Source: SAR324 cluster bacterium (GTDB taxonomy: Bacteria; SAR324; XYD2-FULL-50-16). From it: a stretch of DNA of 64,000 nt. The notes under the pieces were generated by a model, which made no database searches, was not told the origin of the DNA, and saw only the letters and a list, made by a program, of their open reading frames with translations. Positions 25,475-49,954 of the stretch are shown here, piece after piece; within the stretch, counting starts at the first letter, position 1; the number at the start of each line of letters is the position of its first letter. Location of the stretch: positions 91,956 to 155,955 of the forward strand of contig JANQGX010000006.1 in the NCBI GenBank assembly GCA_028282885.1, read 5' to 3'. Both the position numbers and the translations under genes were made by a program.

Positions 25475-25861
25475 TCAGTTTTTATTGTCCAGCAGCAGAT
25501 AGATCTGCTCAACAAGCAGGTTCATGTCTTCCAGGGGTTTGTAAAAGACATGCTCCTGGGTAATATTCATCTCCTTGAACTCCGGTGGAAGCATATATTC
25601 CACAGAACCGGTGTGAATCAGAAACCGGAGGTCGGGATTGATCTCCCTCGCTTTCACGACAAAAGCATTTCCGTCCATACCGGGTAATCGCATATCAACA
25701 ATAACAACATCAAAGGGCTGTGATAAGATCATTTCCAGTGCGTTTTCCCCACTCTCCGCAACTTCAACCGAAAATCCTTCATCCTCAATAAAATCAGAAA
25801 TATTCCAACGGTACATCTCTTCGTCATCGACAATCAGCACTCTTCTTTCGCTATTTCCCAT
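25475..25861 (-). CDS. stand-alone response-regulator receiver protein (CheY-like)
   Basis: 128 aa with RVLIVDDEE, DVVIVDMRLPGMDG, and a T/K pair in HTGS..YKP. There is no output domain. Confidence 0.85.
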   Translation of the reverse strand: MGNSERRVLIVDDEEMYRWNISDFIEDEGFSVEVAESGENALEMILSQPFDVVIVDMRLPGMDGNAFVVKAREINPDLRFLIHTGSVEYMLPPEFKEMNITQEHVFYKPLEDMNLLVEQIYLLLDNKN

Positions 25862-25882
25862 ATCCGTTTTTTATCAATTCCC

Positions 25883-26050: not shown

Positions 26051-27670
26051 CTATGGCCTCGGGATAAATCGATCGAAAACAGCAGGAAAGACGATTCCCT
26101 TAAGCTTCAACTGCTGCAACCGGTATAAATAGGCGGTTCCGTTTAGAATGTTTCTCGTCACTGCAACCACTCCACGGTTTTCTGCTTTTTCCAGAAATGA
26201 CCCCCTGACCCAATCATTAAATGCGCCCATCGCAGGTCCGCAGAAGATCTGATAGTCCATTTCCCGTCCTTTCAGGCCGGAGTTCGCCCAATGTGATGCC
26301 AATCCAAGATACCATCGGAAAACCAGGGCCATTTTCTTTTTAGGATTGCTGTCTGCCTTGGCAATCTGTTCGGGATCTCTTTCCTTGAAATAGTCAATGG
26401 TCTCTTGCCAAACCTGATCGAGGGATTTTTGAAATACTTGTTTCTCGAGCTTGTCGCGTTCGATAGCGGGGATATCGTCAATGGAGCTGCAATTCCTGTA
26501 CAACTCACCCAGTTTCTGGGCTCGCATTGCAAAGAGGGTTCCCCGCCTCAGTACTTGCAGTTTCCCGCCCATTTCAAACATATCGAATGCGGGTGCCATG
26601 GCAACATCAGCCATCTGAGCCTGTGCAAGAAGGCTCCTGACATGATCCGATGTACCTGCTTCGATACAGCCCTGGTTCACAGATCCGGTAACAACATAAG
26701 CGGCTCCCATCATATAGGCTGCAAGTGCGGACTCTGGAGTTGCAATTCCCCCGGCAGCGCCAACTCGCGCAGGTAGTTGATATCCATATTTATCTTGAAT
26801 TTCGTTTCTGAGCGCAATCATCGATGGAAGAAGCGAAACCAACGGGCGGTTGTCCGTATGTCCCCCGGAATCGGCTTCAACGGTTATATCATCTGCCATT
26901 GGAACCTTTCCGGCCATATTGGCTTGATCCTGTGTGATCAATTGCTGCTCAACCAACCGTGATAAAAACTTCTCCGGAGCTGGTTCCATGAATTTGGTTG
27001 CCACCTCCCGGCGCGAGATTTTGGCAATAATCCTGTTATTGATCCGGATATTTCCATTTTGTCCCTGTTCCAGACCTGCTGCACGGTAATAGACTACATA
27101 GGGGGTTAATTCCATATAAGCAGAGGCTTCAACAGTTCTGATCCGATGTTTTAGATAGAGATCAACAGCGTTTTTTTCCAGAGCTTCAAAAAAGGGATTG
27201 TGGATCAGGTTAAAAGCATAGGGGCCAGCCGGAAGTTCTTTCTGAAGATACTGAATTGTCTCTTCAAGCTGGGCGGGGATGACTCCACCGGCACCATAGG
27301 AGGCTAGATAACCGTTTTTGCCAAGCGTGACTACCATCTCCGGTGATGAGATACCATGCGCCATTGATCCCGCGTAACTTGCATACCTGGATTGGTAATC
27401 CTGTTTAAAATGCGGATCTCCCAATTTGTCGGCGGTCAGCGGATTGGCGACCCCCAGGAGGGGAGTATCGCCATTGGGATCTATCTTACCGCTATTGCTG
27501 GCTCCGATCCGATTATCATATTGGAGCAGGAAGACAGGTTGTTCCAGGTCCAGAAGCATCTCCTGAATGGCAGATTCATCATAAACGATTGACGAAGTTG
27601 AACCGCTCCAGCTTAGTCCTTCGGATTGAACGGCTGAAATCAATTCAATATTGTTTGGCTTGGATGTCAT
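26051..27670 (-). CDS. pfaD: PfaD-type enoyl reductase of PUFA / trans-AT PKS systems (FMN, nitronate-monooxygenase fold)
   Basis: 539 aa. Motifs MAHGISSPEMV, GAGG, EADSGGHTDNRP and GAAGGI are typical of PfaD-type ER. The start codon overlaps the upstream stop as ATGA (27667-27670). Confidence 0.85.
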   Translation of the reverse strand: MTSKPNNIELISAVQSEGLSWSGSTSSIVYDESAIQEMLLDLEQPVFLLQYDNRIGASNSGKIDPNGDTPLLGVANPLTADKLGDPHFKQDYQSRYASYAGSMAHGISSPEMVVTLGKNGYLASYGAGGVIPAQLEETIQYLQKELPAGPYAFNLIHNPFFEALEKNAVDLYLKHRIRTVEASAYMELTPYVVYYRAAGLEQGQNGNIRINNRIIAKISRREVATKFMEPAPEKFLSRLVEQQLITQDQANMAGKVPMADDITVEADSGGHTDNRPLVSLLPSMIALRNEIQDKYGYQLPARVGAAGGIATPESALAAYMMGAAYVVTGSVNQGCIEAGTSDHVRSLLAQAQMADVAMAPAFDMFEMGGKLQVLRRGTLFAMRAQKLGELYRNCSSIDDIPAIERDKLEKQVFQKSLDQVWQETIDYFKERDPEQIAKADSNPKKKMALVFRWYLGLASHWANSGLKGREMDYQIFCGPAMGAFNDWVRGSFLEKAENRGVVAVTRNILNGTAYLYRLQQLKLKGIVFPAVFDRFIPRP

Positions 27671-30600
27671 GTGGTTTCTCCAATCAGTGCGATTGCTGCG
27701 TCCTTGATTTCATAAATACGAAGGCCATTTTTCCATAAATTGGCATCGGCATGTATCTGGATTCTGTCTGTTGCTTTTACAATGAATTTTAAATGGACCT
27801 CAAGATCCATCGATTCATTGTCCGGGGTTACCTGACCTCTGTATAGCCATTGGGTTTTACCGGCGACATGTGTAAAATAGGGTCGTTTCAAACCGGCTCC
27901 CAGGTCTTCCGCTAAAGCAAAAATCTTCATAGCCTGAAGAATCGCTTCCACTCCGAGTGAACCCGGCATTACAGGATCATTATAAAAATGGCAGGGATAA
28001 AACCAGTCGTTGGGATCAACTGTTTTGTGGGCGAAGACATAACCGTTGCCATATTTGCCGCTGTTTCTGAACAGATAGGCCTCGTCAAGAAATTCTAGCT
28101 GATCTCCGGCCAGGCGATAAAATGGTTTATCCGCTTCTGAGTCGAAGAATCTCTTTCTGGTCTTATCGGATTTAAGCGGTACCCTCTCAGATGAATCCAG
28201 CGACAGTTTGTTTAATTCATACCAGGGTGGGATCTTCTCCCCACGATCCAGACCTCTTTGCATGGAGAGGGCTTTGGGGGTGGAGTATCCAAATTGGGTT
28301 TTCCCTTCGTAAAACCTGGTTCCATCTGTTGTCAGACAATAGTCAAAATTGATTACTACAGTTTCTGCCGCTTTTGAAACGGAAGTCATCAGGATATCTA
28401 TAGTTACCGTTTTCCCCCTCAAGTCCGGAATGGAGATCAGGTTGGCGTCGGAGCCCAGGTTTCGAAAACACATCTCTGCTTCCGGGTAGACCAGGGTCGT
28501 TCCCATGTAAGCACTCAAAAAGGCGCAGGGTTGCAGTGCAATTTCCATGATAATGGAATAAGGCGTTACCGGGTATGGGTTTTGCCGGATAAACCATGCA
28601 TCCTCCGGGACATCATACTCCGCTTTAAGAGCAGAAGGCTGGGAAAAATCAAATCGTTTTCCCTGAATATCCATAATTCGGCTAACCAGCTTGAGATCAC
28701 CATTTGGCATTCGCGGACCTTTCCGGCCATTATAAATTTTATACTCAGGGCCAAAACATTTCTCCAGTGAGCCCGTGGCGAACTCTTCTATCACATCCGG
28801 TCCAAAAAGAGCGGGTTTTGCTTGAGATTTTCCGGTTATGCCCTGTTCTATTTTCGCAGGATCGCCACCGGTTTTTTCCATCAGCTCAACCCCGAGATCC
28901 CGGAAATCGACCAGAATTTTATCATCCATTATGATATAGAAGTTGGCCCTTGCGAATGGTCGGGGGTGCAGTCCGATTTCAATGATCTCCATCTTGTAAG
29001 TGTACCTGGTATCGCTCGGAACAATTTGGCCTCGAGCCCGGATTCCATATGGACGGTTCTTAACCGGCTGGAATCTCGCATCGCGGGTTTTGACTTGAAG
29101 ACCCAGGAAAAGCATATAGAATCCCAGTAATTGAACGCAACCTTCGGTCACCAGGGTTCCTGCCAGGACGTTGTCATCCTTGAAATGGCAGGGGAAATAC
29201 CAGTGATCAGGGGCAAGATCCTTTTCGGCAATCACTTCTCCCAATCCCCAGGGTCCCCCTGTTCGATCAATAGAAGTGATGCGATCCAGCATCATGATTT
29301 CTGAAGATGCGAACCGCAGGGATGGATTCAAGCCTTGTTGATCATATGTGGCTCCAAAACAGGCAGCGATATTGCCCTTGGTAATATTGAGCAGTTGCTC
29401 CCTTGTAAAAGATGTCCTGTGGCAATGGAGCAGCGGATCAAATCGCCGTTTTTCAACGCGGGCCCGCTGGTCGAGTTCGGCTTTGGAGAAGACAATCCCT
29501 TTGCCTTGTGCCAACTCTTCATCGGATACAAAACCGGCTCTTCCGCCGGTCATTTTATAAACGAGCTTGTCCCTGACATAGCAGTCATAGCCGAAATTGA
29601 AGAAGAGCGCCTCCCCGGATTTGAGAAAGGATTCGATTTTTATGTCATAACGAAGTGTTTCTCCTTCTTTGGGAAGTTCGTCAAAGAAGGTCATGGTATA
29701 ATCGGTGAGTCGATAATAGCGTTCCCCTTTGCTATCGAAATCGATCCCCAGGTAACTGATCAACAGAAGATCGCATTGACCTGCTTCACTGGCAATGGCC
29801 CAGGGAATCTGGCTGTCAATGCTGTACCAGGCTCCGTGCGGGATGTCATACTCGGTGGTGAGTGAAGAGGATTCAAATTCCCCTCTTTTGGCGTTGAGCC
29901 GGGTGACCCGGTTTACCAGTAAATAAGGCGGTAGTGGCAGACGTACTCTGTACTTATAGGTATCAATGATAGCATACTCGTTTCCAAAAACCTTGGCGAT
30001 ACTGCCTCCGGCAAATTCCAACAGATCAGGTTCGTTCCAGATATTATTGGCAGGGGCTGTTTGTTTTCCGGATTCGGGATAAAAATAAGGATCTCCGGCA
30101 AACGGTTTTTCGGTTATGGTGGATTGCGGAGTCGGTTTCTGCCCTGGGGAATGCATCAGTTTCAGCTTTATCATTTCTCTCAGATGCTTCAGGGCCGAAT
30201 CACGAGCGGTCAAAAATGCTGAATGGCTGCGATTGATCTGGGCTTGATGCAAGCGCATACTTCTATTCGCATTAGCCAGCAACTCCTCCGATCCGGTCAG
30301 TTCGAGAGACCCTTCTTCATATAAAGTTGATGGCGCCTGTGGCTGGGGGGTAATTGCTTCCCCCGGTTTTACTGTTGTAGAAAAAGTTGTCTGCTGTTGG
30401 CCAGTCCTTGCGTCATCAACCGCAATTCGTGCTGAAAGATCCGGAAGGGTTATTTGATCGTTAATGCGATCTCCACCAAGAACAATTGATTTCACCCCCT
30501 GCATTGAAGACTGGAGACCGGATTCGAGAGGATAAATACAGGTAAAGTCCGGACTTGTTCGATGGCTGTATAGTGCGGCCATGGCTTTCATCAGGGATTG

Positions 30601-33600
30601 ATGTTCACTACATCCCTTGTTGTCGACAGATATCGCCAGATGGGGTCTGTTTTCCAGTATTTCATTGATCCAGCGGGAGCAATTGGCTCTGGGACCCAGT
30701 TCAAGGAAAATTCTGTTTCCATCCTCGTATACCTTGTTGACGAGGTCCGGAAAATTCAGAGTCTGGCAATATATCCCAGCAATATTGTCGGCAAGCTGCG
30801 TGCTGGTTTGTTCAGTCGGTCCATTGTTGAAAGCGGAATAAAACTGGATATCCTCCCTTGTTGTCACCTCGGAATTATGTAAGTCATGAAGAGCGTTATA
30901 CTCTGCTTTAACCAGCTCGCAATGAATGATATCGTTCAGTCCACCCGGACTGACTGCCCCCTTGAAGTTTTGAATGAATTTCCGGCATGCGGATTCTTCA
31001 CCTCCTATCACCACTTCCCCGGGTGTATTGACCAGCAGCAGAAAAACCCTCTCCTCACCTGCAATCAATCCTGCGACTTCATCCACGGGTGCTTGAATAG
31101 CGTAGGTATTCCAGATTCCCGGTTGTTGGCCTTTATCATTTTCAGGATAGTTCCAGGCTTTGCGGGCTGTAATCATCGGCCCCGCCAATTGTTCGCGGAA
31201 AAGCGGACTGGTCTGCAGGAGCCGGCTCAATCGGTCTGTATTCTGCCAGAGTCCCAGGGCAAAGCACATGGAAACCTCACCCATGCTGTAACCGAAGGCC
31301 GAATCAGGTTGAATTCCAAATGCACCGTTAAGTATTGCGGTCTTTAAGATGGTAAAATTGATACCTGATTCAAATACCGGTATGACATCACTGTCCAGGG
31401 TTTTCTGGAATCGGGCGATATCTTTATCGGATAGTGATGTGAGCGAACGGGGACTGATCAACCGGTCATGAAACAATCTATCTGGATTACCGGAATAGGT
31501 TTCGGGCATATCAGCCAGATCAGGGAACATCCGGAAAGTATCCTTTCCCATACCAATATAGGAATTGAAGGCCCCGGGATAGACAAAGCTCAATTTCCCT
31601 TCCACTCCCAGCGGATCGCCTGTAAAATAGCTGCCCATGGGAGATGACCAGGTGCTTTTCTCGGATAACGCGGATGGTATTCCCTTCAGGGCCGCTTCTA
31701 ATTCAGCTTTAAGACTTTCCTTATTTCCGGCGAGAATGGCGACAGCGTTTTTTTGGTTTTCAGTATTTCCGTTTTGCCGGTGACGTTCGCAAGCGGCCAA
31801 ATACAAATCATCCACCCGGTCAACGTCTTCCAGATAGCTTTTCAGATCCTTCAGAAGTTTTGACACATCATTGGCTGCAAAGGGAAACAGTTGCACGGGG
31901 GTCTGTTTGAAAAAATCATTGCTTCTCTTTTCCGGATTTTGGTTTTCTGAAAGGATCAGCACGGCTGTGGAATCATCAGCATTGGTTCCTGCGATAGCGG
32001 CAAATCTCTTCGGATGTTCTGCCTTAAGCCAATGTGTGGATTGGGTAGCTGCATAAAACGGGCTTTTTTCTATTGTTTCAGGTAATTTGGGGCGCTTCCA
32101 TCCAGGTAAAGCCGGGATGTAGCGATGGTGAAGGCAGAGTGCGGTTTTAATCAGCGATGCCATTCCCGATGCGGTATAAGTATGCCCGACATTTGTGGCA
32201 GCACTACTTAAGGCACAGGATAGTCGTGATGTGGAACCAAAACCTCCGGCCAGCCCCCTTATCATCTCCTCTTCACATCCAACTCCGGAGATCTCAATGA
32301 GTCCTATGTTTTCCGGCTGAATATCGGTTTTATCAAAGGTTGCCAGGCAACCGGATTTTACGGAATGCTCGTCCGATCCTGGGGTTATCTCGATGGAATC
32401 GATCATTGCATAGCAGCGATGATGATCCTTTTCACCTTTTTTTGCAGTTTTTACCACGATCGCTCCCGCGCCTTCCCCGGCTTTCCAACCTGTGGTTTCT
32501 GCGTCGAATCCCATGGATCCGTTTTTGGTGGAAAATGGTTCATGGAATCGATTCCTGATCAGCATATCCTCCAGATTCCCTGCCAAATCCACTGCTCCCA
32601 CAACGGCTGCATCCACTTCATTATTGCTCAACATCATCTGAGCCACCTGCAAGGCTTTGTATGCGGAGTTATCATCAGCGGACAAAGTAAACGCCGGACC
32701 TGAAAAATCCCAGAAGGCAGAGATACGGCTGGCCATGATGTTGCCGATGAAGCTGGTGAATTCGTTTACCCTTACCGGTTTGCGAATAGTGTTTTGCATC
32801 CGGCTTTTCAGATCTTTCTGCTCATCCCCGGACAGATTGATTTTGTTATTCTCTAGAAACCTGTCCAGCATCCAGTCCAGATCGATTCTGGCTTTGAACT
32901 GGTGAAGAGACTTATCCGATTCCATGGCAATAATCACCGCAACATTCGACCCTTTGCGGATACCGGCGTCTAGGATGGCATTGTCGGCGATTTTCAGCAT
33001 CAGCAGCTGCTGGGGAATCATGGTTTCGATTTCATTGGGTGGAATTCGGTACCGTAACGCATCAAAATCAAAGGATTCAAGGTAGCCCCCTTTGGGTATA
33101 CCTTCACTTCCGAATCCGAATGTTTCAAGGAGGGAAGGGTTATCATCAATTCCTTTCCAACGGTTGCGGGGCAGGGGTATAAATCCCTGCTCACCGGCAT
33201 AAACAGCCTGGTCATAGGCGGCCAATCCGGAAAAGGGACCAAAGCTGGCATCCATACCGATAATGGAAAGAGCTTCCTGTTGCGAAGGTTTGGATGGACG
33301 AAGGTTTTTAGCAGACTGCTTGTTTTGTTCCGCCGATTGTTCAAAAACCAGGTGCGCATCCGTTCCGCCAAATCCAAAAGCATTCACTGCACAACAACGG
33401 GGATGAGAATGCTCCGGCCAGGGGCGTGACTTGTCCACTACCTGTTGGCTGGAAATTACATTCCCCGGTGAAGAGACAGGCTCCTCTATGTGAATAGTGG
33501 CGGGAATCATTCCCTGTTCCATACTGAGAATCACCTTGATCATACTTGCCATACCTGCACAGGTCAGCAGATGACCGAAGTTTGCCTTCACCGAGCCAAT

Positions 33601-34683
33601 TAGAGGGGAGCCACCGTTCTTCCCGAAAAACATCTCCAGGGACTCCAGTTCAACCTTGTCTCCTACAGGAGTTCCTGTGGCATGGCATTCGATATAGTCA
33701 ATCTTTCCGGGTGATATTCCGGAGTCATGATAGGCTCGTTCGTATGCCAGAAGCTGCCCCCTGGAGTTCGGACTGAGAACTGACCGTCCCTTTCCGTCAT
33801 TTGACAAGCCAATCCCGGAGATGACGGCATGAATTCTATCTTTGTCCCGAAGAGCGTCATCCAGTCTTTTCAGGAGAAACATTCCCGCCCCTTCACCGGA
33901 CACCAGTCCATCAGACCGCTTATCTAGTGGACAGTGGATGTCCTTGTCGGAGTATGCTGTGAAAGTGGAAAAACCCTGGTTGATGAAAAAGGGATCACCG
34001 GCACTGACTGCACCGGCAAGCATCAGATCCACCTGCCCCGATTCAAGATAATCGCAGGCCAGTTTTACTGAATAGAGTGAGGAGGCACAGGCAGCATCCA
34101 AAGCAAATGAGACTCCCGAAAGTCCCAATGCTTTGGAGATAATCTCAGCCGGTTGACCTGAAATACGGCTATTGGAAATGACCTGATTCTGCAGGCTTTC
34201 GTGTTCAATGAAATCCAGATTCTCTTTTCCCAGCGACTTCTTGAGGCTGTCCTCGAATAGTTTATGGTAAATCGGCAAAAAGATTTGATTGGACGATTTT
34301 GTTGGAAAGGAGAGATTGCCAAGAATCACTCCGCAGGGTTCCGGATGCTTTCCGGTTTGATAATACCCTCCATTTTGCAAGGCTTCCCTGGCAACATAGA
34401 GGGACCACTGGTAGATGTCGTCTAACTGTTGCAGGTAAGATTCATCAAGTTTGTAGCCGGTAGCATCGAATTCAAAGTCGGTGATATAGCCTCCCCGCAG
34501 GCTGTAGTATTTGTCCGGTTCTCCCTTTTTCCTGCTGAAGTAGACTGAGGGATCAATTCCCATTTGTTTGGCCGTATGAAAAGAAGTAGAGTCGATTCCC
34601 CGGTTCAGATTTTGTATAAACTGTTCCGGTGTCCTGGCACCGGGAAAAAGGCACGACATTCCGATTACGGCGATTTTCTGCAT
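27667..34683 (-). CDS. pfaC: PfaC-like PUFA-synthase subunit with embedded acyltransferase: KS - CLF - AT - (pseudo-DH + FabA-type DH) x2
   Basis: KS spans aa 3-447 (nt 33343-34677): DAAC199ASS (Cys codon at 34087-34089), ECHATGT, NFGHLL. The KS-like CLF spans aa 472-915 (nt 31939-33270): the Cys position reads SADDNS and the first His motif is lost. AT spans about aa 1030-1345 (nt 30649-31596): GYS1133MGE. A Pro/Gln/Thr-rich linker covers aa 1400-1545. Two FabA-type DH cores are present, DHWYFPCHFKDD (aa 1826-1837) and NDWFYPCHFYNDPVMPG (aa 2225-2241). I saw no ACP (LGxDS) or KR motif. Confidence 0.85.
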   Translation of the reverse strand: MQKIAVIGMSCLFPGARTPEQFIQNLNRGIDSTSFHTAKQMGIDPSVYFSRKKGEPDKYYSLRGGYITDFEFDATGYKLDESYLQQLDDIYQWSLYVAREALQNGGYYQTGKHPEPCGVILGNLSFPTKSSNQIFLPIYHKLFEDSLKKSLGKENLDFIEHESLQNQVISNSRISGQPAEIISKALGLSGVSFALDAACASSLYSVKLACDYLESGQVDLMLAGAVSAGDPFFINQGFSTFTAYSDKDIHCPLDKRSDGLVSGEGAGMFLLKRLDDALRDKDRIHAVISGIGLSNDGKGRSVLSPNSRGQLLAYERAYHDSGISPGKIDYIECHATGTPVGDKVELESLEMFFGKNGGSPLIGSVKANFGHLLTCAGMASMIKVILSMEQGMIPATIHIEEPVSSPGNVISSQQVVDKSRPWPEHSHPRCCAVNAFGFGGTDAHLVFEQSAEQNKQSAKNLRPSKPSQQEALSIIGMDASFGPFSGLAAYDQAVYAGEQGFIPLPRNRWKGIDDNPSLLETFGFGSEGIPKGGYLESFDFDALRYRIPPNEIETMIPQQLLMLKIADNAILDAGIRKGSNVAVIIAMESDKSLHQFKARIDLDWMLDRFLENNKINLSGDEQKDLKSRMQNTIRKPVRVNEFTSFIGNIMASRISAFWDFSGPAFTLSADDNSAYKALQVAQMMLSNNEVDAAVVGAVDLAGNLEDMLIRNRFHEPFSTKNGSMGFDAETTGWKAGEGAGAIVVKTAKKGEKDHHRCYAMIDSIEITPGSDEHSVKSGCLATFDKTDIQPENIGLIEISGVGCEEEMIRGLAGGFGSTSRLSCALSSAATNVGHTYTASGMASLIKTALCLHHRYIPALPGWKRPKLPETIEKSPFYAATQSTHWLKAEHPKRFAAIAGTNADDSTAVLILSENQNPEKRSNDFFKQTPVQLFPFAANDVSKLLKDLKSYLEDVDRVDDLYLAACERHRQNGNTENQKNAVAILAGNKESLKAELEAALKGIPSALSEKSTWSSPMGSYFTGDPLGVEGKLSFVYPGAFNSYIGMGKDTFRMFPDLADMPETYSGNPDRLFHDRLISPRSLTSLSDKDIARFQKTLDSDVIPVFESGINFTILKTAILNGAFGIQPDSAFGYSMGEVSMCFALGLWQNTDRLSRLLQTSPLFREQLAGPMITARKAWNYPENDKGQQPGIWNTYAIQAPVDEVAGLIAGEERVFLLLVNTPGEVVIGGEESACRKFIQNFKGAVSPGGLNDIIHCELVKAEYNALHDLHNSEVTTREDIQFYSAFNNGPTEQTSTQLADNIAGIYCQTLNFPDLVNKVYEDGNRIFLELGPRANCSRWINEILENRPHLAISVDNKGCSEHQSLMKAMAALYSHRTSPDFTCIYPLESGLQSSMQGVKSIVLGGDRINDQITLPDLSARIAVDDARTGQQQTTFSTTVKPGEAITPQPQAPSTLYEEGSLELTGSEELLANANRSMRLHQAQINRSHSAFLTARDSALKHLREMIKLKLMHSPGQKPTPQSTITEKPFAGDPYFYPESGKQTAPANNIWNEPDLLEFAGGSIAKVFGNEYAIIDTYKYRVRLPLPPYLLVNRVTRLNAKRGEFESSSLTTEYDIPHGAWYSIDSQIPWAIASEAGQCDLLLISYLGIDFDSKGERYYRLTDYTMTFFDELPKEGETLRYDIKIESFLKSGEALFFNFGYDCYVRDKLVYKMTGGRAGFVSDEELAQGKGIVFSKAELDQRARVEKRRFDPLLHCHRTSFTREQLLNITKGNIAACFGATYDQQGLNPSLRFASSEIMMLDRITSIDRTGGPWGLGEVIAEKDLAPDHWYFPCHFKDDNVLAGTLVTEGCVQLLGFYMLFLGLQVKTRDARFQPVKNRPYGIRARGQIVPSDTRYTYKMEIIEIGLHPRPFARANFYIIMDDKILVDFRDLGVELMEKTGGDPAKIEQGITGKSQAKPALFGPDVIEEFATGSLEKCFGPEYKIYNGRKGPRMPNGDLKLVSRIMDIQGKRFDFSQPSALKAEYDVPEDAWFIRQNPYPVTPYSIIMEIALQPCAFLSAYMGTTLVYPEAEMCFRNLGSDANLISIPDLRGKTVTIDILMTSVSKAAETVVINFDYCLTTDGTRFYEGKTQFGYSTPKALSMQRGLDRGEKIPPWYELNKLSLDSSERVPLKSDKTRKRFFDSEADKPFYRLAGDQLEFLDEAYLFRNSGKYGNGYVFAHKTVDPNDWFYPCHFYNDPVMPGSLGVEAILQAMKIFALAEDLGAGLKRPYFTHVAGKTQWLYRGQVTPDNESMDLEVHLKFIVKATDRIQIHADANLWKNGLRIYEIKDAAIALIGETT

Positions 34684-34753
34684 GGAAGAACCTGTTGGTA
34701 GTTGTCAGGGAAAAGCTGGAGCTATCTTTTTTTACTGATTTTTTGTAATTCCA

Positions 34754-34786
34754 AATCAATATTGATTCATCTGCCGGTGCAGTCAA
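34754..34786 (-). promoter_or_regulatory. candidate sigma-70 promoter of pfaC with an overlapping perfect 14-bp palindrome
   Basis: On the minus strand the promoter reads TTGACT (34781-34786), a 17-nt spacer, then AATATT (34758-34763). The palindrome AATCAATATTGATT (34754-34767) covers the -10 element. Confidence 0.5.
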
Positions 34787-34891
34787 CGCCTTGTCAGGCG
34801 CAGGGATGACCTCAACCGCAATGCTTTGTGTATCAGTAGAATATTGTGCGTTATCGTACCCTTGGTTGTAAAGGGCTCAGTAGAAGGCCCT

Positions 34892-37800
34892 TCAGATGGC
34901 TGTCTGAAGCGAATCAGTGTCGATGGAATTGAAGTCCACGGAGACGATTTTGGAGATGCCGGGCTCTTCCATCGTGATACCAAACAGGGCATCTCCGATC
35001 TCCATGGTTTTTTTGTTGTGGGTGATGATGATGAACTGAGAGTTCTCGGTCAGGACTGTTACATGCTTATTGAACCGGACGTTGTTTGCATCATCAAGTG
35101 GTGCATCCACCTCGTCCAGCAGGCAGAAAGGACTTGGTTTGATCATGAAGACCGCGAAAATGAGCGCGATAGCTGTTAAAGCCTTCTCACCACCGCTCAG
35201 GAGTGTCATGTTCTGCAGCTTTTTTCCCGGAGGTTGTGCGATGATATCCACCCCCGATTCAAGCAGATCCGCTTCATTAGTCAGTCTTAGATAGGCCTCC
35301 CCACCTCCAAAAAGCTGGGGAAATAGTTTGCTGAATTCTTCATTGACCCTGATAAATGTTGATTTGAAGCGTTTTCTGGACTCCTGGTTGATCTTGGTAA
35401 TAGAAGCTTCCAGGGCTTCCATACTTTGAATCAAATCCGATGATTGCGTATCCAGGAAGTTCAGCCTTTCTTTCAGGGTTTCATATTCGGCTTTTGCGGC
35501 AAGATTAATATCCTCCATGCCACCGATTTTCTTTTTGAGTTGATTAATATTTTCAGTCTCTTCTTCAATGTTGAACTCCTTGACATTGAAGGTTCTGATC
35601 AGATCTTCTGGTTTCAGGGAGTCTTCAGCAAAGAGGTTGTCTTCTATATTTTTAGCTTCCTGGAGGAGCTGGGCCAGTCTGATTTCCAGTTTATGATCTT
35701 TCTCTTTTAGACCGGAAGAGGTCTGAATCTCCTTTTTAATGGATTCTGCCAGCTCCATCTGCTGGTTGCGGCTGGCTTCAATCCGATCAGACATGGAATT
35801 CTGCTCTTTTTCCATCTCGCTCAATTCTTCCAGCATTCGGGGAAGTCTGGATTCAGCTTCTTTGAGCGAGGAATGGGTTGCTTCTCTTCTGCCGTCTGTT
35901 TCAAGAGATCTTTTTACGATCTCCTCTTTTTGGGTTTTTCGATCCAGGATATCCTGATTCAGTCTTTTCAAACTGCTGTTGTTACTTTGTTGTTTCTCCT
36001 TCAATCCGGCCAGAACCACTTGCAGGTGCTGGAGTTCATTGGAACTCTCCTCCAGACTGGATTCCGTTTTTTCGATTTGGCCCTGAAGGTCCCGGCGAAC
36101 CCTTCGAATCGTTTCACTTGTCTGCTCATTTTCAGTGATGGACTGGGAAAGGCTTTTGATTTTCTCTTCGAATTGCGTTCTTTGCTGAATCAATTGGATC
36201 TGCTCGTTTGACATATTTTCACGAGCCTTTTCAATCCTCTGCTTCTCTTCCGACTTGTTATCAAACTCCTTCTCCAGGGAGACCAGTTCGAGATCCAGAT
36301 CAACCAGATCCTGTTTCGAAATCATCAGTAATCTTGAAACCTCGTCCGCGGTATCTGACACTTCCTGTAGTTGATCATTCAGGGTTCTCATCTGCTTGGT
36401 CAGATCCGAATTTGTCTGGTTCAGTGTTGCTATCTCATTGCGTCTGTTAATCAGGGTTTCCGCCAGATTCGCACTGCCAGGTTTCCCGACAAGGAATATG
36501 CCGGCCCTGGTCATCACTGTTGCTTCCGAGTCGATTAATCCGTCTGCTTTTGAGAGGGCGTTCTTTGACAATTTGTAAATGGGGCCGTCCAGTGTTTCGA
36601 AATGATCAATGAACGGGAAGGATCCGTTTTTTTCGGAATTAATTGAAATCAGGGAATTGAGACTGGAGTCTGCCGAATTTGCCCCTTGCTTTTGCAGGTC
36701 GAGGAAGGCCAGTTGAAATTGTTCAAAACTCTCCTCGCCGGCCAGATTAATGATATCTTCCAGTTTAGAGACCGATTGAAACACCAGCAGGTTGAAATAG
36801 CGGTTTAAAAACGCCGCTGCAGTGGGAGGGATCTCTTCGGGGAGCATTGCCAACTCAACCAGTGAACCCAAAAATCCCAGTTTATCCGCCTGTTTTTCGT
36901 TCTCTTTGAAAAAGTCCAGGATACTCCTGGTGGCGTTATCGTATTCCTCATGACTTAGAATGATCTCCTCAAGGGACCTGACCCTGTTTTCATTTCGATT
37001 GATCTCCTCTTTGGCGGAAGCAGTTTTCCTTTTGAGTTCATTCAACAGCTCATCTTTTTCATCTTTCTGATCCGAATAGCTTTCAATGGTCTCCGTAAGC
37101 TTTTCCTTCTTTTTTCTTTTTTTCTCAAGTTCTGCGGAGAGTTTTTCCCAGGTTGCCAACGACTCTTCCTCTTCCAGGGTGAGATCGTTCTGATTTTCGG
37201 ATAGTTGGGCTGTTTTCTCTTTTACTTCCTTTAATCGCTCCTGCAACTGATCCAGTTGAGTTTTGTCTCCAACCGCTGTTTTTACGGCTTCAACCTCTTT
37301 ATCCTGCAGGTTTTTTAATCGAACCTGCTGGTTGCTCAGCTCCGATTGTCCGGATTGCACAACTTCATTAAGTTGATCCAGGAGCCGGCTCTTCTCATCG
37401 ATCTCGCCGTTCAGTGATTTGTTTTCCGTTTGGTACGTCTGCAACTGATATTCAACGGTTTTGATCTGCTTATCGATGAGATCGATCTCTTCGCTGTTTT
37501 TCTTCTCCCATTCATCCAGGTTTTCAAGGGTGATCTTATCGGATTCCAACTTGCTCTCCAGCTTGATCACCTCCTCTTTTTTTTCCTGGATCGACCTTTT
37601 ATACTCTTCCAGCTCGGCCCTGTCTTTCGTGATTTCGAGATTTAAAGCAGATTCCTTTGCCTCCAGACTCGAAATTTGTACCTTTAGATCATTTCTCTGG
37701 CGGGTAGCGTCATCTCTTTTTTTAGTAACCCTGTCTGCTTGCTCTTTCAGTTTGTGCCACTTTTTGGCAGAAATACAGTTTTGCAGTCTTTCCAGTCTGG

Positions 37801-38470
37801 ATTTGGCCGTCAGATATTCCTCCGCTCTTTCCACCTGCACCACCAGAGTCTCTTCCTGCCGCTTTAGTTCCGCCAGTACATCTTCAACCCTGAGCAAATT
37901 CTGTTTGGTCGCCTCAAACTTTCTTTCCGCTTCTTTTCTTTTGGTTTTGAATTTGACAATTCCTGCAGCCTCATCGATGATCATCCTCCTGTCTTCCGCC
38001 CGGCTTGTGATGATCTGGTCAATCTTTCCCTGTTCGATGATGGAGTACCCCTTACCGCCAATACCCGTATCCATGAAGAGTTCCCGGATATCTGTCAGGC
38101 GACAGGGTGTTTTGTTGATCAGATATTGGCTTTCTCCACTGCGGTAAAGTCTCCTGGTCACCGAAATCTCGGTGAACTCGGCATACCGGGGAATGGTATC
38201 GCTTTCAGGATTGGTAAAGACAAGGGTGACCTGGGCTACGCTCACCGGTTGACGGGTACTGCTACCGCTGAATATCACATCCTCCATGCTTCCGCCGCGG
38301 AGATGTTTCGCACTTTGCTCTCCAAGGGTCCAGCGAATGGCATCCACGATATTGCTTTTGCCGCAACCGTTCGGTCCAACAACAATGGAGATCCCGTTTT
38401 GGACAAAATTGATAATCGTTTTATCGCAAAACGACTTAAAACCAGATGCTTCTAATCGAAGGAGTCGCAT
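34892..38470 (-). CDS. smc: chromosome partition protein SMC
   Basis: 1192 aa. N-terminal head FKSF..GPNGCGKSNIVDAIRWTLGEQS, long Glu/Lys coiled coils with a hinge, and a C-terminal LSGGEK..LLDEVDAPLD. Confidence 0.95.
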   Translation of the reverse strand: MRLLRLEASGFKSFCDKTIINFVQNGISIVVGPNGCGKSNIVDAIRWTLGEQSAKHLRGGSMEDVIFSGSSTRQPVSVAQVTLVFTNPESDTIPRYAEFTEISVTRRLYRSGESQYLINKTPCRLTDIRELFMDTGIGGKGYSIIEQGKIDQIITSRAEDRRMIIDEAAGIVKFKTKRKEAERKFEATKQNLLRVEDVLAELKRQEETLVVQVERAEEYLTAKSRLERLQNCISAKKWHKLKEQADRVTKKRDDATRQRNDLKVQISSLEAKESALNLEITKDRAELEEYKRSIQEKKEEVIKLESKLESDKITLENLDEWEKKNSEEIDLIDKQIKTVEYQLQTYQTENKSLNGEIDEKSRLLDQLNEVVQSGQSELSNQQVRLKNLQDKEVEAVKTAVGDKTQLDQLQERLKEVKEKTAQLSENQNDLTLEEEESLATWEKLSAELEKKRKKKEKLTETIESYSDQKDEKDELLNELKRKTASAKEEINRNENRVRSLEEIILSHEEYDNATRSILDFFKENEKQADKLGFLGSLVELAMLPEEIPPTAAAFLNRYFNLLVFQSVSKLEDIINLAGEESFEQFQLAFLDLQKQGANSADSSLNSLISINSEKNGSFPFIDHFETLDGPIYKLSKNALSKADGLIDSEATVMTRAGIFLVGKPGSANLAETLINRRNEIATLNQTNSDLTKQMRTLNDQLQEVSDTADEVSRLLMISKQDLVDLDLELVSLEKEFDNKSEEKQRIEKARENMSNEQIQLIQQRTQFEEKIKSLSQSITENEQTSETIRRVRRDLQGQIEKTESSLEESSNELQHLQVVLAGLKEKQQSNNSSLKRLNQDILDRKTQKEEIVKRSLETDGRREATHSSLKEAESRLPRMLEELSEMEKEQNSMSDRIEASRNQQMELAESIKKEIQTSSGLKEKDHKLEIRLAQLLQEAKNIEDNLFAEDSLKPEDLIRTFNVKEFNIEEETENINQLKKKIGGMEDINLAAKAEYETLKERLNFLDTQSSDLIQSMEALEASITKINQESRKRFKSTFIRVNEEFSKLFPQLFGGGEAYLRLTNEADLLESGVDIIAQPPGKKLQNMTLLSGGEKALTAIALIFAVFMIKPSPFCLLDEVDAPLDDANNVRFNKHVTVLTENSQFIIITHNKKTMEIGDALFGITMEEPGISKIVSVDFNSIDTDSLQTAI

Positions 38471-38488: not shown

Positions 38489-39208
38489 TTAGAGTGTGAA
38501 ATTTTCTCCCAGGTAAACCTTCCTGGCGAGTTCGTTGTTGACGATATATTCGGGAGTCCCGTCAACCAGGATTTCTCCCTCGTTCATAATATAGGCTCGA
38601 TCGGTAATGCCAAGGGTTTCCCGAACATTGTGGTCGGTGATTAATATACCAATGTTGCGACCGGCCAATTCACTGATGACTTCCTGAATGTCGATAACCG
38701 CAATAGGATCGACTCCTGCAAAGGGTTCATCCAGCAGCATAAAGTTGGGTTCGGTTGCCAGGGCCCGTGCAATTTCAACCCTTCTCCTTTCTCCTCCGGA
38801 TAGAGAGAATCCTTTATTTTTTCTCAAATGCTTGATTCTTAAGTCATCCAACAGGCTGTCCACTTTTCTGGATTGCTCAGTTTTTGACATTTTCAGGGTT
38901 TGGAGAACCGATAGCAAGTTCTCTTCAACCGTCATTTTTCGAAACACCGAAGCCTCCTGTGGCAAATATCCGATTCCTTTCCTTGCTCTCTGATACATGG
39001 GGAGTGATGTAATATCCAGCTCATCCACATGGATGCGTCCGGAATTGGGTCGGATGATTCCCACAACCATATAGAAACTGGTGGTTTTACCCGCTCCATT
39101 CGCCCCCAGCAATCCCACAACTTCCCCCCTGGAGATGTGAAAGGAGACATCATTAACCACGGTGCGGTTGTTATATATTTTGACCAGCTTTTCTGTTTTC
39201 AATTCCAT
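38489..39208 (-). CDS. lptB: LPS export ABC transporter ATP-binding protein
   Basis: 239 aa: GLLGANGAGKTT, YLPQEASVFRKMTVEEN, LSGGERRRVEIARAL. Confidence 0.85.
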   Translation of the reverse strand: MELKTEKLVKIYNNRTVVNDVSFHISRGEVVGLLGANGAGKTTSFYMVVGIIRPNSGRIHVDELDITSLPMYQRARKGIGYLPQEASVFRKMTVEENLLSVLQTLKMSKTEQSRKVDSLLDDLRIKHLRKNKGFSLSGGERRRVEIARALATEPNFMLLDEPFAGVDPIAVIDIQEVISELAGRNIGILITDHNVRETLGITDRAYIMNEGEILVDGTPEYIVNNELARKVYLGENFTL

Positions 39209-48182: not shown

Positions 48183-49421
48183 TCAGACTTTCTTGAAGAC
48201 CAGGGTGGCATTGGTGCCGCCAAAACCAAAAGAGTTGCTCAAAGCAACGTCGATGTTTCTTTCCTTGGCCTTGTTGGGTGTAATATCCAGATCACATTCG
48301 GGATCGAGATTTTCCACATTGATGGTGGGCGGTGCAAGATTATTGAGCATGGCCATCACCGTTATCGCTGATTCGAGTCCTCCTGATCCCCCCAGAAGGT
48401 GCCCGGTCATCGACTTGGATGAGCTGATCGAAACCTTCTTGGCCTCCTGCTCGCCGAGAGCCAGTTTGATGGCATTCAACTCGTTAATATCACCGGTCGG
48501 TGTTCCGGTACCGTGTGCATTGATATAATCCACCTCGGCACCGCTTATGTCGGCATCAGCGATCGCTTTTTTGATTGCCAGGGTGGGTCCTTCAACCGAA
48601 GGAGCCGTAATATGATAAGCGTCGGAGCTGACACCGTAGCCCGCGATTTCAACCAAAGGTTTTGCGCCTCTGGACAGGGCAAACTCATACTCTTCCAGAA
48701 TTAAAATTCCGCAACCTTCACTAAGCACAAATCCGTCCCGGTCTTTGTCATAAGGCCGGGAAGCTTTTTCCGGTTCATCGTTGCGACGGGAAAGGGCCTT
48801 CATGGATCCAAATCCGGCAATGGCCAGCGAAGTGATGGTGGATTCCGCGCCTCCCGCAATCATTACCTTGGCATCCCCACGTTCGATGATACGGGCGGCA
48901 TCACCAATGGAGTGGTTGGCAGATGAACATGCAGAAGTTGTGGTTGCGCTGTAGCCCTTGGCGCCATGCAGTATCGAGAGATACCCCGATGCCATGTTGC
49001 TGATGCACATGGGGATAAAAAAGGGAGAAATCTTGGAAGGACCTCTCTCCTCAACGATCATGCTACTTTTTTGAATCCCGGGTAATCCTCCGATACCGAC
49101 ACCAACACAAACACCGACATCCGGACCAAGCTCTTCACTGATTTCCAGGTTGGCATGTTGAAGCGCTTCCTGGCAGGCTGCGATGGCATATTGAATGAAT
49201 ATGTCCATCTTTTTGACCTCTTTCTTGTGAATAAAATCCAAGGGTTCGAAGTCTTTTACCTCGCCGGCGATTTGAGTGGAAAATCCGGAAGCATCAAATC
49301 GGGTAATTCTTGTGATGCCACTTTGCCCGTGCCTGACCTTTTCCCAGGTGGATTCAAGGTCATTACCCAAAGGGTTGACAGTGCCAATTCCAGTTACGAC
49401 AACACGTTTTTTCATCTCCAA
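48183..49421 (-). CDS. fabF: 3-oxoacyl-ACP synthase II
   Basis: 412 aa: TSACSSANH (active-site Cys), NAHGTGT, GHLLGGSG, and the acpP-fabF gene order. Confidence 0.9.
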   Translation of the reverse strand: MEMKKRVVVTGIGTVNPLGNDLESTWEKVRHGQSGITRITRFDASGFSTQIAGEVKDFEPLDFIHKKEVKKMDIFIQYAIAACQEALQHANLEISEELGPDVGVCVGVGIGGLPGIQKSSMIVEERGPSKISPFFIPMCISNMASGYLSILHGAKGYSATTTSACSSANHSIGDAARIIERGDAKVMIAGGAESTITSLAIAGFGSMKALSRRNDEPEKASRPYDKDRDGFVLSEGCGILILEEYEFALSRGAKPLVEIAGYGVSSDAYHITAPSVEGPTLAIKKAIADADISGAEVDYINAHGTGTPTGDINELNAIKLALGEQEAKKVSISSSKSMTGHLLGGSGGLESAITVMAMLNNLAPPTINVENLDPECDLDITPNKAKERNIDVALSNSFGFGGTNATLVFKKV

Positions 49422-49493
49422 TCCAAGATTTCCGGGTTAGGACGTTTCGTAAGGGAACCGATTCTGTTTGTAACAAAACCGGGAAGGTTTGTT

Positions 49494-49745
49494 TTATGCA
49501 TTCAATGCTGCAGTAACATGATCGATAGCTTCTTTTACTGTGGTGATCTTCTCGGCTTCTTCATCCGGTATTTCCAGATCAAATTCCTCTTCAAAGGCCA
49601 TTACAAGTTCCACTGTATCAAGAGAGTCCGCACCAAGGTCATCTATAAAATTGGACTCCTCTTTGATGTCAGATTCTTCTATACCCAATTGCTCGACGAT
49701 GATAGCAATAACTTTGCTTTGAATTTCACTACGTTCAGTACCCAT
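49494..49745 (-). CDS. acpP: acyl carrier protein
   Basis: [20 protein letters not shown], which contains the phosphopantetheinylated Ser. Confidence 0.95.
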
Positions 49746-49932: not shown

Positions 49933-49954
49933 ATGACTTACTCCCTTTCAAGTT

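What the first reader, a model, noticed from the sequence alone, without database searches (positions are those of the whole stretch)
26051..34786. PUFA-synthase half-cluster: KS-CLF-AT-DH-DH megasynthase plus PfaD enoyl reductase, with no ACP/KR (PfaA-type) partner in 64 kb
What the sequence shows:
- A 2338-aa ORF carries an active KS, a Cys-less KS-like CLF, an embedded GYSMGE acyltransferase and two FabA-type DH cores.
- It is translationally coupled (ATGA overlap at 27667-27670) to a PfaD-type ER.
- I found no ACP (LGxDS) or KR motif in either protein.
- No multi-ACP megasynthase or PPTase gene lies anywhere in the window. On the same strand the upstream neighbours are lptB-smc and the downstream neighbour is a lone receiver protein.

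What is established: canonical pfa clusters (pfaA-D, pfaE) keep the ACP/KR subunit adjacent. The KS-CLF-AT-DH-DH order resembles myxobacterial Pfa3-type subunits rather than Shewanella PfaC.

What I infer: either the system is split across the genome, or this pair works with discrete carriers such as the type II AcpP/FabG at 49.5-50.7 kb. The second option would be an undescribed hybrid architecture.
Basis: partly seen in the sequence, partly recalled or inferred. Interest (0 to 1): 0.7.

Follow-up and report, generated by a model that had tools for sequence, protein, structure and literature searches.

The report
PUFA-synthase gene pair without its carrier subunit
Two intact genes of a polyunsaturated-fatty-acid-type lipid synthase (a fused PfaBC subunit and the PfaD reductase) sit next to the chromosome-segregation gene smc without the carrier-protein subunit PfaA; this layout is conserved across an uncultured bacterial lineage, and the missing subunit is most likely encoded elsewhere in the genome.

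Summary
Window 27667-34683 (-) encodes a 2338-aa KS-CLF-AT-DH-DH protein. Window 26051-27670 (-) encodes a 539-aa PfaD enoyl reductase, joined to it by an ATGA overlap. Neither protein has an ACP or KR domain. The 64 kb holds no PfaA-type gene and no PPTase.

The protein architecture is not new. It is the widespread "pfaBC fusion" of Shulse & Allen (2011) cluster types C, D, H and I.

What is unusual is the gene arrangement. In relatives outside this lineage, 77 of 79 loci with at least 8 kb of upstream sequence carry pfaA directly upstream of pfaBC. In the window's own lineage (PfaBC 53-60% identical) 0 of 8 do. In 10 lineage loci the pair lies directly downstream of smc, and SMC and PfaBC diverge in step. 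All catalytic residues are invariant across 21 lineage proteins.

The AT domain is PfaB-type (GYSMGE), not a malonyl loader. The pair therefore lacks loading, carrier, ketoreductase and PKS-type dehydratase functions and must work with partners supplied in trans.

- **Best reading (about 0.7):** a split pfa system with pfaA and the PPTase elsewhere. The SAR324-type clade near this lineage in the tree likewise has pfaD unlinked.
- **Alternative (about 0.12):** a hybrid with type II AcpP/FabG. This is not excluded.

No tool here could search a whole genome, so the choice between the two stays open.

The parts
27667..34683 (-). pfaBC fusion gene, 2338 aa: KS-CLF-AT(PfaB-type)-DH'-DH-DH'-DH
   Evidence: ORF; Pfam and NCBIfam domains; more than 7000 homologues with E <= 1e-50, and nearly all of the 120 listed are full-length proteins of about 2300-2400 aa; PDB 6RIW (Moritella marina PfaC KS-CLF) 807 bits over aa 1-852
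33304..34680 (-). Active ketosynthase domain (aa 2-460): Cys199 in DAACASS, His334 in CHATGT, His371 in FGHL
   Evidence: Pfam PF00109/PF02801; residues invariant in 21 lineage proteins; motifs read
31924..33282 (-). Chain-length-factor domain: KS-like fold with no active-site Cys ('AFTLSADDNS')
   Evidence: Second ketoacyl-synt stretch; tblastn second KS-like hit; motif read
30559..31869 (-). PfaB-type acyltransferase domain (aa 939-1375): GYSMGE with Ser1133, His1254
   Evidence: TIGR02816 pfaB_fam E 1.5e-34, but 119.7 bits is below the 144.3 cutoff; Pfam AT only 18.6 bits; Ser and His invariant, no conserved Arg after the Ser; motif criteria from PMC12895367
28870..29421 (-). First FabA-type dehydratase/isomerase core (aa 1755-1938), His1833 in FPCHF
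   Evidence: NF003509/TIGR01749 FabA stretch; Pfam FabA matched in 2 stretches, 263.9 bits in all; His invariant
27703..28107 (-). Second FabA-type dehydratase core (aa 2193-2327), His2232 in YPCHF
   Evidence: Pfam FabA best stretch; His invariant
26051..27670 (-). pfaD, 539-aa FMN-dependent (FabK-like) enoyl reductase
   Evidence: TIGR02814 649 bits against cutoff 449; PfaD_N, NMO and FabD_helical_ins domains; PDB 4YX6 PfaD 626 bits
27667..27670 (-). ATGA overlap: pfaBC stop codon and pfaD start codon share bases (translational coupling)
   Evidence: Sequence read
34684..34891 (-). 208-bp smc-pfaBC intergenic region with two weak sigma-70-like hexamer pairs
   Evidence: the number of promoter-like matches in the region is no higher than in shuffled sequence, so this is not evidence of a promoter
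34892..38470 (-). smc, the conserved upstream neighbour of the pair across the lineage
   Evidence: TIGR02168 912 bits; smc lies directly upstream of pfaBC in 10 lineage loci
38489..39208 (-). lptB, part of the conserved asnS-(metallophosphoesterase)-IDH-lptB-smc block
   Evidence: TIGR04406 375 bits; synteny
25475..25861 (-). Stand-alone receiver-domain protein downstream of pfaD; not conserved in relatives
   Evidence: Pfam Response_reg; no tblastn hit in any other locus searched at that point
48183..50695 (-). Type II FAS genes fabG-acpP-fabF, 13.5 kb upstream; they belong to the system only under the rival 'hybrid' explanation
   Evidence: NCBIfam equivalogs above cutoff: fabF 596 bits, fabG 333 bits, acyl carrier protein 120 bits

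Best explanation
This is the pfaBC-pfaD half of a split PUFA-synthase-type ('secondary lipid') synthase.

Shown:
- The two genes form a translationally coupled operon.
- Together they supply the late-elongation KS-CLF pair, a PfaB-type long-chain acyltransferase, two FabA-type dehydratase/isomerases and the enoyl reductase.
- They cannot work alone. They lack malonyl loading (MAT), acyl carrier domains, the ketoreductase and the PKS-type dehydratase.

Inferred:
- Those functions come in trans from a PfaA-type subunit (KS-MAT-ACPn-KR-DH) encoded elsewhere in the chromosome.
- That subunit is activated by an Sfp-type PPTase that is also unlinked.
- Pfa subunits are separate polypeptides in any case, so separating the genes does not change the chemistry.
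- The product would be a long-chain, probably unsaturated, fatty acyl chain for membrane or specialised lipids.
- In an ancestor of this uncultured lineage the pair became fixed downstream of smc and has been inherited vertically since.
For: (1) Domain content and intact catalytic residues: KS C199/H334/H371, AT S1133/H1254, DH H1833/H2232, all invariant in 21 lineage proteins.

(2) The AT is PfaB-type (GYSMGE, no conserved Arg), so there is no malonyl loader in the pair.

(3) In relatives outside the lineage, pfaA lies immediately upstream of pfaBC in 77 of 79 loci with at least 8 kb of upstream sequence. This architecture therefore normally works with PfaA.

(4) The lineage forms one clade nested among pfaA-linked clusters in a neighbour-joining tree, so the unlinking is derived.

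(5) Dispersal of pfa genes is common in this part of the tree. All 7 SAR324-type loci, the clade next to (L083 + lineage), have pfaA-pfaBC but no pfaD within the 4-10 kb of downstream sequence held. L082 (Gammaproteobacteria) independently has an isolated pfaBC-pfaD pair and L054 an isolated pfaBC.

(6) smc-pfaBC-pfaD recurs in 10 lineage loci. SMC identity to the window (63/52/50/53/53%) tracks PfaBC identity (59/55/53/55/55%), which indicates long vertical inheritance under constraint.

Against: - No pfaA was found for any lineage member. There is none in the window (29 kb upstream and 26 kb downstream of the pair) and none within 10 kb in 7 other independent loci.
- A protein search with the PfaA of L083 (the lineage's sister in the NJ tree) listed no hit on a contig of the same length as a known lineage contig. 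The two unnamed candidates checked were ordinary contiguous clusters.
- An accession-block comparison found no second pfa locus in lineage MAGs.
- These negatives are weak. Only the best 120 of about 8000 hits are listed, and no whole genome could be searched.
Confidence: 0.7

Rival explanations
1. Hybrid type I/type II system with no PfaA in the genome. PfaBC (KS-CLF, AT, DH-DH) and PfaD (ER) would act on acyl chains carried by the discrete AcpP. FabD would load malonate and FabG would do the ketoreduction. The pair could, for example, elongate and desaturate FAS II products.
For: - pfaA is absent from all 8 lineage loci with long flanks, against 77 of 79 outside the lineage (Fisher p = 8e-10).
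- The pair sits in a conserved housekeeping block (asnS-IDH-lptB-smc) rather than an accessory island.
- It has relocated as a two-gene unit in L007, L095 and L082.
- acpP, fabG and fabF lie 13.5 kb away in the window.
- PfaC KS-CLF is reported to perform the late elongation steps (cited in PMC12895367).
Against: - There is no operon-level link to acpP or fabG.
- No lineage locus has a discrete ACP or KR gene adjacent to the pair, except a non-conserved SDR about 3 kb downstream of pfaD in L006.
- Every characterised Pfa synthase uses the tandem ACPs and KR of PfaA.
- Absence of pfaA from the genome is not shown.
- Unlinked pfa genes occur in neighbouring clades without any need for a new mechanism.
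Confidence: 0.12
2. The pair serves a different carrier-bearing assembly line (a PKS or NRPS-PKS hybrid elsewhere) and makes the lipid tail of a specialised metabolite, as in zeamine-type or chitinimine-type pathways.
For: - In the 59%-identical relative (P0003, GCA_018829445.1) a 2857-aa NRPS-PKS gene (C, A, PP-binding, KS and more) starts about 10 kb downstream of pfaD.
- Hybrid PKS-NRPS-PUFA-synthase pathways are documented (PMC13291983).
Against: - No NRPS or PKS gene lies in the 64-kb window or in the other lineage loci.
- The described hybrid pathways still contain a PfaA homologue.
Confidence: 0.08
3. The pair is an evolutionary remnant of a degraded pfa cluster and makes nothing.
For: Only the missing partner genes. 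Shulse & Allen interpreted the type J partial cluster as a partial transfer (PMC3098273).
Against: - Both reading frames are intact, 7.0 kb and 1.6 kb.
- All catalytic residues are invariant across 21 proteins, with 66% mean column identity.
- The pair is conserved with its synteny across organisms whose SMC is only 50-63% identical.
- The translational coupling is retained.
Confidence: 0.03

Closest known systems
Type C secondary-lipid synthase cluster of Desulfatibacillum alkenivorans (pfaA - pfaBC[KS-CLF-AT-DH2] - pfaD; Shulse & Allen 2011, PMC3098273)
   Same: Same PfaBC domain order and length (2337 aa in L080) and the same pfaBC-then-pfaD gene order. PfaBC is about 45% identical and PfaD about 55%.
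   Different: In D. alkenivorans a 2324-aa PfaA (KS-AT-3xACP-KR-DH) ends at the start codon of pfaBC. In the window smc occupies that position, and no pfaA lies within 29 kb.
SAR324-type pfa loci (L013, L014, L022, L025, L045, L050, L053)
   Same: The next clade to (L083 + lineage) in the PfaBC neighbour-joining tree. One lineage MAG is itself labelled SAR324 cluster bacterium (L009). These loci are also dispersed.
   Different: The unlinked gene differs. SAR324-type loci keep pfaA-pfaBC and lack pfaD within the 4-10 kb of downstream sequence held. The window lineage keeps pfaBC-pfaD and lacks pfaA.
Type J partial cluster of Planctomyces limnophilus (pfaD - pfaA only; PMC3098273)
   Same: A two-gene 'half' of a pfa system that includes the ER gene.
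   Different: It is the complementary half: PfaA with ACPs and KR is present, and KS-CLF/DH2 is absent. It was reported from a single genome, not as a trait conserved across a lineage.
Gammaproteobacterial PfaB + PfaC + PfaD (Shewanella, Moritella, Photobacterium)
   Same: The catalytic domains are homologous. KS-CLF matches M. marina PfaC (PDB 6RIW, 807 bits). PfaD matches PDB 4YX6 (626 bits). The AT motif GYSMG is identical to that of S. baltica PfaB.
   Different: PfaB and PfaC are separate proteins there and fused here. The genes lie in a contiguous pfaA-D operon.
Myxobacterial Pfa3 (KS-CLF-AT-DH-DH'-AGPAT; PMC8436480)
   Same: The order KS-CLF-AT-DH on one polypeptide, and an unlinked PPTase gene.
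   Different: There is no AGPAT domain here; the protein ends 11 residues after the second FabA domain. The myxobacterial genes pfa1-pfa2-pfa3 are contiguous, with the ER gene first.

Membership tests
PfaBC fusion subunit of Pfa (PUFA/secondary-lipid) synthases | N-terminal active KS with a Cys-His-His triad | tested here: met
   PF00109/PF02801. C199, H334 and H371 are present and invariant in 21 relatives.
PfaBC fusion subunit of Pfa (PUFA/secondary-lipid) synthases | Adjacent KS-like chain-length factor lacking the catalytic Cys | tested here: met
   Second ketoacyl-synt region. The site reads AFTLSADDNS. PDB 6RIW (PfaC KS-CLF) aligns over aa 1-852, 807 bits.
PfaBC fusion subunit of Pfa (PUFA/secondary-lipid) synthases | PfaB-type AT: GYSxG with Tyr before the catalytic Ser, a Ser-His dyad, and no Gln/Arg malonyl-binding pair | tested here: met
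   GYSMGE with S1133 and H1254 invariant; no conserved Arg in the 30 residues after the Ser; 'PGAFN' in place of PGQxQ. Criteria are from PMC12895367. Caveat: TIGR02816 scores 119.7 bits, below its 144.3 cutoff.
PfaBC fusion subunit of Pfa (PUFA/secondary-lipid) synthases | Two FabA-like DH/isomerase domains with a catalytic His | tested here: met
   Pfam FabA 263.9 bits in two stretches. H1833 (FPCHF) and H2232 (YPCHF) are invariant.
PfaD enoyl reductase | Full-length match to the PfaD family model above its curated cutoff | tested here: met
   TIGR02814 649.4 bits against 449.25. PDB 4YX6 and 6LKC PfaD, 626 and 618 bits.
Complete Pfa synthase gene cluster (pfaA-D plus pfaE) | PfaA-type subunit (KS-MAT-tandem ACP-KR-PS-DH) encoded next to pfaBC/pfaC | tested here: not met
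   No PP-binding, KR or PS-DH signal in the 64-kb window or in 7 other lineage loci with at least 8 kb upstream. It is present in 77 of 79 loci outside the lineage.
Complete Pfa synthase gene cluster (pfaA-D plus pfaE) | PfaA-type subunit present anywhere in the same genome | not testable with these tools
   No tool searches a named genome. Indirect hunts found nothing but were not exhaustive.
Complete Pfa synthase gene cluster (pfaA-D plus pfaE) | Sfp-type PPTase (pfaE) | tested here: inconclusive
   None among the 56 further window ORFs of at least 120 aa scanned with Pfam. pfaE is often unlinked in known systems (PMC8436480, PMC13291983), so its absence from the window says little.
Myxobacterial Pfa3 | C-terminal AGPAT (1-acylglycerol-3-phosphate O-acyltransferase) domain | tested here: not met
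   No acyltransferase family follows the second FabA domain, which ends at aa 2327 of 2338.
Dissociated type I/type II hybrid (hypothetical) | PfaBC/PfaD acting on AcpP-bound substrates with FabG as the ketoreductase | not testable with these tools
   acpP and fabG exist 13.5 kb away, but they are ordinary FAS II genes. No sequence test distinguishes which carrier is used.

The most novel reading that the evidence does not exclude
Genomes of this lineage contain no PfaA at all. The conserved smc-linked pfaBC-pfaD operon would then be a self-standing elongation/desaturation module working on the discrete type II carrier AcpP, with FabD and FabG. That would be a dissociated type I/type II hybrid fatty-acid synthase, which has not been described.
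Probability: 0.12. Interest if true: 0.75.

Novelty: new member of a known kind. Interest (0 to 1): 0.4.

Why it matters
PUFA-synthase-type clusters are usually recognised and mined as contiguous pfaA-D operons. This case shows a deep, uncultured lineage (labelled Deltaproteobacteria, SAR324 cluster or simply 'bacterium' in public MAGs) in which the KS-CLF/AT/DH/ER half has stayed fixed in a housekeeping neighbourhood, apart from any carrier subunit, through long divergence. Cluster-based genome mining would either miss these systems or call them incomplete.

If pfaA is elsewhere, the lineage is a natural example of a Pfa synthase assembled entirely in trans. It would be useful for studying how the subunits recognise each other. 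If pfaA is truly absent, the pair would show that Pfa catalytic modules can use type II carrier proteins. That would be new biochemistry and useful for engineering.

Tried and rejected
- **Exact look-up of the window's PfaD** failed, probably because I gave the reference without its stop codon. The PfaBC look-up returned only a 20.8-kb Logan contig, shorter than the window.
- **Hunt for the lineage's pfaA by protein search.** I used the PfaA of L083, the lineage's sister in the NJ tree, as the query. The best 120 hits were mostly gammaproteobacterial PfaA. None sat on a contig of the same length as a known lineage contig. The two unnamed candidates I checked, P0146 and P0148, are ordinary contiguous clusters.
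- **'Complementary halves' idea.** SAR324-type pfaA-pfaBC loci and window-type pfaBC-pfaD loci might sit in the same genome. I compared NCBI accession blocks of lineage MAG proteins with members of 10 PfaBC clusters outside the lineage and found no shared block. A coincidence of contig length (20,965 bp for both P0121 and P0069) turned out to be a different, cyanobacterial-type contig. The idea remains untested rather than refuted.
- **Conserved non-Pfa partner next to the pair.** Candidates were an AMP-ligase plus SDR in L006, 896-aa and 339-aa proteins in L007, the window's receiver protein, and MatE. None is shared across lineage loci, apart from MatE in the window and L002.
- **Hidden ACP in the 1376-1560 linker of PfaBC.** The stretch is a Q/P/T-rich, poorly conserved linker with no DSL-type motif and no Pfam hit.
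- **Not attempted:** walking along contigs with the remaining look-ups (10 kb per step against a genome of several Mb gives a negligible chance), and a third large protein search (expected yield too low for its cost).

Full report
**1. What is in the sequence**

The two reading frames are exactly as reported: 27667..34683 (-) of 2338 aa and 26051..27670 (-) of 539 aa. On the coding strand the junction reads CAC-ATGA-CAT, so the pfaD start codon overlaps the stop codon of the large gene.

Pfam and NCBIfam place these domains on the large protein:
- an active ketosynthase at aa 2-460;
- a second KS-like region;
- a PfaB-family acyltransferase at aa 939-1375 (TIGR02816, E 1.5e-34, though its 119.7 bits fall below the 144.3 cutoff);
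- two FabA-type dehydratases at aa 1755-1938 and 2193-2327.

The small protein is a PfaD-family enoyl reductase, at 649 bits against a cutoff of 449.

Reading the motifs directly:
- the KS has Cys199, His334 and His371;
- the second KS-like domain has 'AFTLSADDNS' where the catalytic Cys would be, so it is a chain-length factor;
- the AT has GYSMGE;
- the two dehydratases have FPCHF and YPCHF.

The closest solved structures are the Moritella marina PfaC KS-CLF didomain (6RIW, 807 bits over aa 1-852) and Shewanella PfaD (4YX6, 626 bits).

No PP-binding or KR family matched either protein. The stretch between the AT and the first dehydratase region is a poorly conserved Q/P/T-rich linker, not a hidden ACP.

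**2. The rest of the window**

I scanned 56 further ORFs of at least 120 aa, covering every non-nested ORF of that size. This is ordinary chromosome.
- Upstream of the pair on the same strand lie asnS, a metallophosphoesterase, monomeric IDH, lptB and smc.
- Downstream lie a lone receiver protein and a MatE exporter.
- Further away are fabG-acpP-fabF, scpA, gltBD, hemB, selA, lnt and mnmA.

There is no multi-ACP synthase, no KR other than fabG, no carrier other than acpP, and no PPTase. tblastn with the ACP and KR-DH parts of a bona fide PfaA (Desulfatibacillum alkenivorans, L080:3015-9989, KS-AT-3xACP-KR-DH) found nothing in the 64 kb.

**3. The architecture is known**

The protein has more than 7000 homologues with E <= 1e-50. 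Nearly all of the 120 listed are full-length proteins of about 2300-2400 aa, from cyanobacteria, Bacteroidota, Chloroflexota, Desulfobacterota, SAR324 and others, and many are annotated 'PfaB family protein'.

That domain is absent here.

The AT deserves a comment. PfaB-type ATs have Tyr before the catalytic Ser (GYSMG), lack the Gln/Arg pair that binds malonate, and act as terminal long-chain acyltransferases (PMC12895367). The window's AT has exactly these features, and no Arg is conserved after the Ser in 21 relatives. The pair therefore lacks a malonyl loader as well as ACP, KR and the PKS-type dehydratase.

**4. The gene arrangement is unusual, and it is a lineage trait**

Twenty-one proteins are 53-60% identical to the window's PfaBC; the next hits fall to 49% or below. 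In a neighbour-joining tree of 95 PfaBC sequences these 21 form one clade. Its sister is L083, a MAG with a complete pfaA-pfaBC-pfaD cluster, and next to those comes the SAR324-type clade. The tree is distance-based with no support values, so the topology is tentative.

I collected the genomic context of lineage members from four sources. I scored every locus by tblastn for PfaA (ACP or KR-DH segments), PfaD and SMC.

| Loci | pfaA directly upstream of pfaBC (loci with at least 8 kb upstream) |
|---|---|
| Outside the lineage | 53 of 55 from reference genomes and 24 of 24 from metagenomes: 77 of 79 |
| Window lineage | 0 of 8 (window, L002/L096, L006, L007, L088, L093, L107 by tblastn; the P0015 locus by its precomputed Pfam listing) |

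Fisher's exact test gives p = 8e-10.

Every lineage locus with enough downstream sequence has pfaD directly after pfaBC.

In 10 lineage loci smc is the immediate upstream neighbour, usually preceded by asnS, IDH and lptB. In L010 and L097 only the last 69 or so codons of smc are on the contig, but they match at 84-86%. Two members (L007, L095) have the pair in a different context. L007 is flanked by a toxin-antitoxin pair and an integrase fragment, so the two genes can move as a unit.

SMC identity to the window (63, 52, 50, 53, 53%) tracks PfaBC identity (59, 55, 53, 55, 55%). The arrangement is therefore old and vertically inherited. All catalytic residues are invariant in the 21 proteins, so the genes are under selection and not decaying.

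Public labels for lineage MAGs are 'bacterium', 'Proteobacteria bacterium', 'Deltaproteobacteria bacterium' and 'SAR324 cluster bacterium'.

**5. What that means mechanistically**

The pair needs substrates bound to a carrier, plus a ketoreductase, from elsewhere.

The simplest source is a PfaA subunit encoded at another locus. PfaA and PfaC are separate polypeptides even in canonical systems, so unlinking the genes changes nothing in the chemistry. Several observations make this the best-supported reading:
- The architecture is coupled to pfaA in 97% of other loci.
- The lineage is nested among pfaA-linked clusters.
- Dispersal of pfa genes is demonstrably tolerated nearby. All seven SAR324-type loci have pfaA-pfaBC but no pfaD within the 4-10 kb of downstream sequence held. 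L082 (a gammaproteobacterial MAG) independently has an isolated pfaBC-pfaD. L054 has pfaBC alone.
- The literature records unlinked pfaE and a partial pfaD-pfaA cluster (PMC8436480, PMC3098273).

I put this explanation at about 0.7.

**6. What I could not do**

No tool searches a named genome, so I could not show whether pfaA and a PPTase exist elsewhere in these organisms. Indirect attempts failed:
- A search with the PfaA of L083, the lineage's sister in the NJ tree, was swamped by gammaproteobacterial sequences.
- Two candidates from that search were ordinary clusters.
- An accession-block comparison found no second pfa locus in lineage MAGs.

These negatives carry little weight.

**7. Rival explanations**

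It is not excluded.
- In its favour: the complete, lineage-wide absence of a linked pfaA; the housekeeping location; the mobility of the pair as a unit; and the published finding that a Pfa domain (the PfaA MAT) can service the type II ACP in vivo (PMC8174602).
- Against it: there is no operon link to acpP or fabG; no discrete carrier gene lies beside the pair in any member; and no characterised Pfa system works that way.

I give it about 0.12.

A role in an NRPS-PKS specialised-lipid pathway is suggested only by a 2857-aa NRPS-PKS gene about 10 kb downstream of pfaD in one relative. That gene is not conserved, so I give this about 0.08. A dead remnant is very unlikely, about 0.03.

**8. Verdict**

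What is new is modest but real. This is a deep uncultured lineage in which the pfaBC-pfaD half of a Pfa synthase is fixed next to smc and consistently separated from any carrier subunit. I rate it a new member of a known kind with an unusual, conserved gene organisation, interest 0.4. One whole-genome HMM search would settle whether it is merely split or something more novel.

Noticed in passing
window 48183-51393: The type II FAS cluster reads rpmF - 520-bp gap - fabG - acpP - fabF. The plsX, fabH and fabD genes that usually sit between rpmF and fabG are missing from this locus. Whether they are elsewhere bears on the hybrid hypothesis.
   Followed up: partly
window 15617-26050 compared with L088:18798-24955: In relative L088, pfaD is followed directly by selA, lnt, a 392-aa protein, a hydrolase and mnmA. 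The same genes lie at window 9457-15550. The window therefore carries about 10 kb extra between selA and pfaD: an mmdA-like carboxyltransferase, a sigma-54 activator, MarR, a cation-efflux gene, two HGD-D (2-hydroxyacyl-CoA dehydratase-type) genes, MatE and the receiver protein.
   Followed up: partly
L013, L014, L022, L025, L045, L050, L053 (SAR324-type loci): All seven have pfaA-pfaBC but no pfaD within the 4-10 kb of downstream sequence held, the mirror image of the window's arrangement. L009, a window-type locus, is also labelled SAR324. Whether both kinds of half-cluster occur in one genome is untested.
   Followed up: partly
L002:26891 onward (GCA_018829445.1, JAHJTV010000063.1): A 2857-aa NRPS-PKS gene (Condensation, AMP-binding, PP-binding, KS, CurL-like and more) starts about 10 kb downstream of pfaD in the 59%-identical relative. 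It has no counterpart in the window.
   Followed up: no
L054:17662-20163 (Cytophagales bacterium UBA2561): pfaBC stands alone, with neither pfaA nor pfaD. It is followed by genes of an ABC-3C (ABC-three component) system: CTD12, MC8/MC6 and DUF2326.
   Followed up: no
L007:8507-9081 and 27028-27191 (GCA_041556995.1): Here the pfaBC-pfaD pair is not next to smc. It lies between a PemK/MazE toxin-antitoxin pair and an rve_3 integrase fragment, with a caspase-family gene nearby. This suggests the pair was relocated as a unit.
   Followed up: no
window 37-331: tRNA-Ile(GAT), tRNA-Ala(TGC) and tRNA-Val(GAC) lie in tandem at the left edge, followed by infC. The Ile-Ala pair is the kind usually found in rRNA spacers, but no rRNA is in the window.
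   Followed up: no
window 7991-8950 (-) and 8001-10000: A 319-aa ORF has only sub-threshold transposase-HTH similarity. It sits in the lowest-GC stretch of the window (0.414 against about 0.46), so it may be a small mobile-element remnant.
   Followed up: no
L108 (Ga0209052_1000040; P0022/P0138 cluster): A PfaBC variant of 2879-2883 aa, about 540 aa longer than usual, scores as high as lineage members against the window. It has pfaA upstream and no pfaD within 10 kb. The nature of the extra segment was not examined.
   Followed up: no
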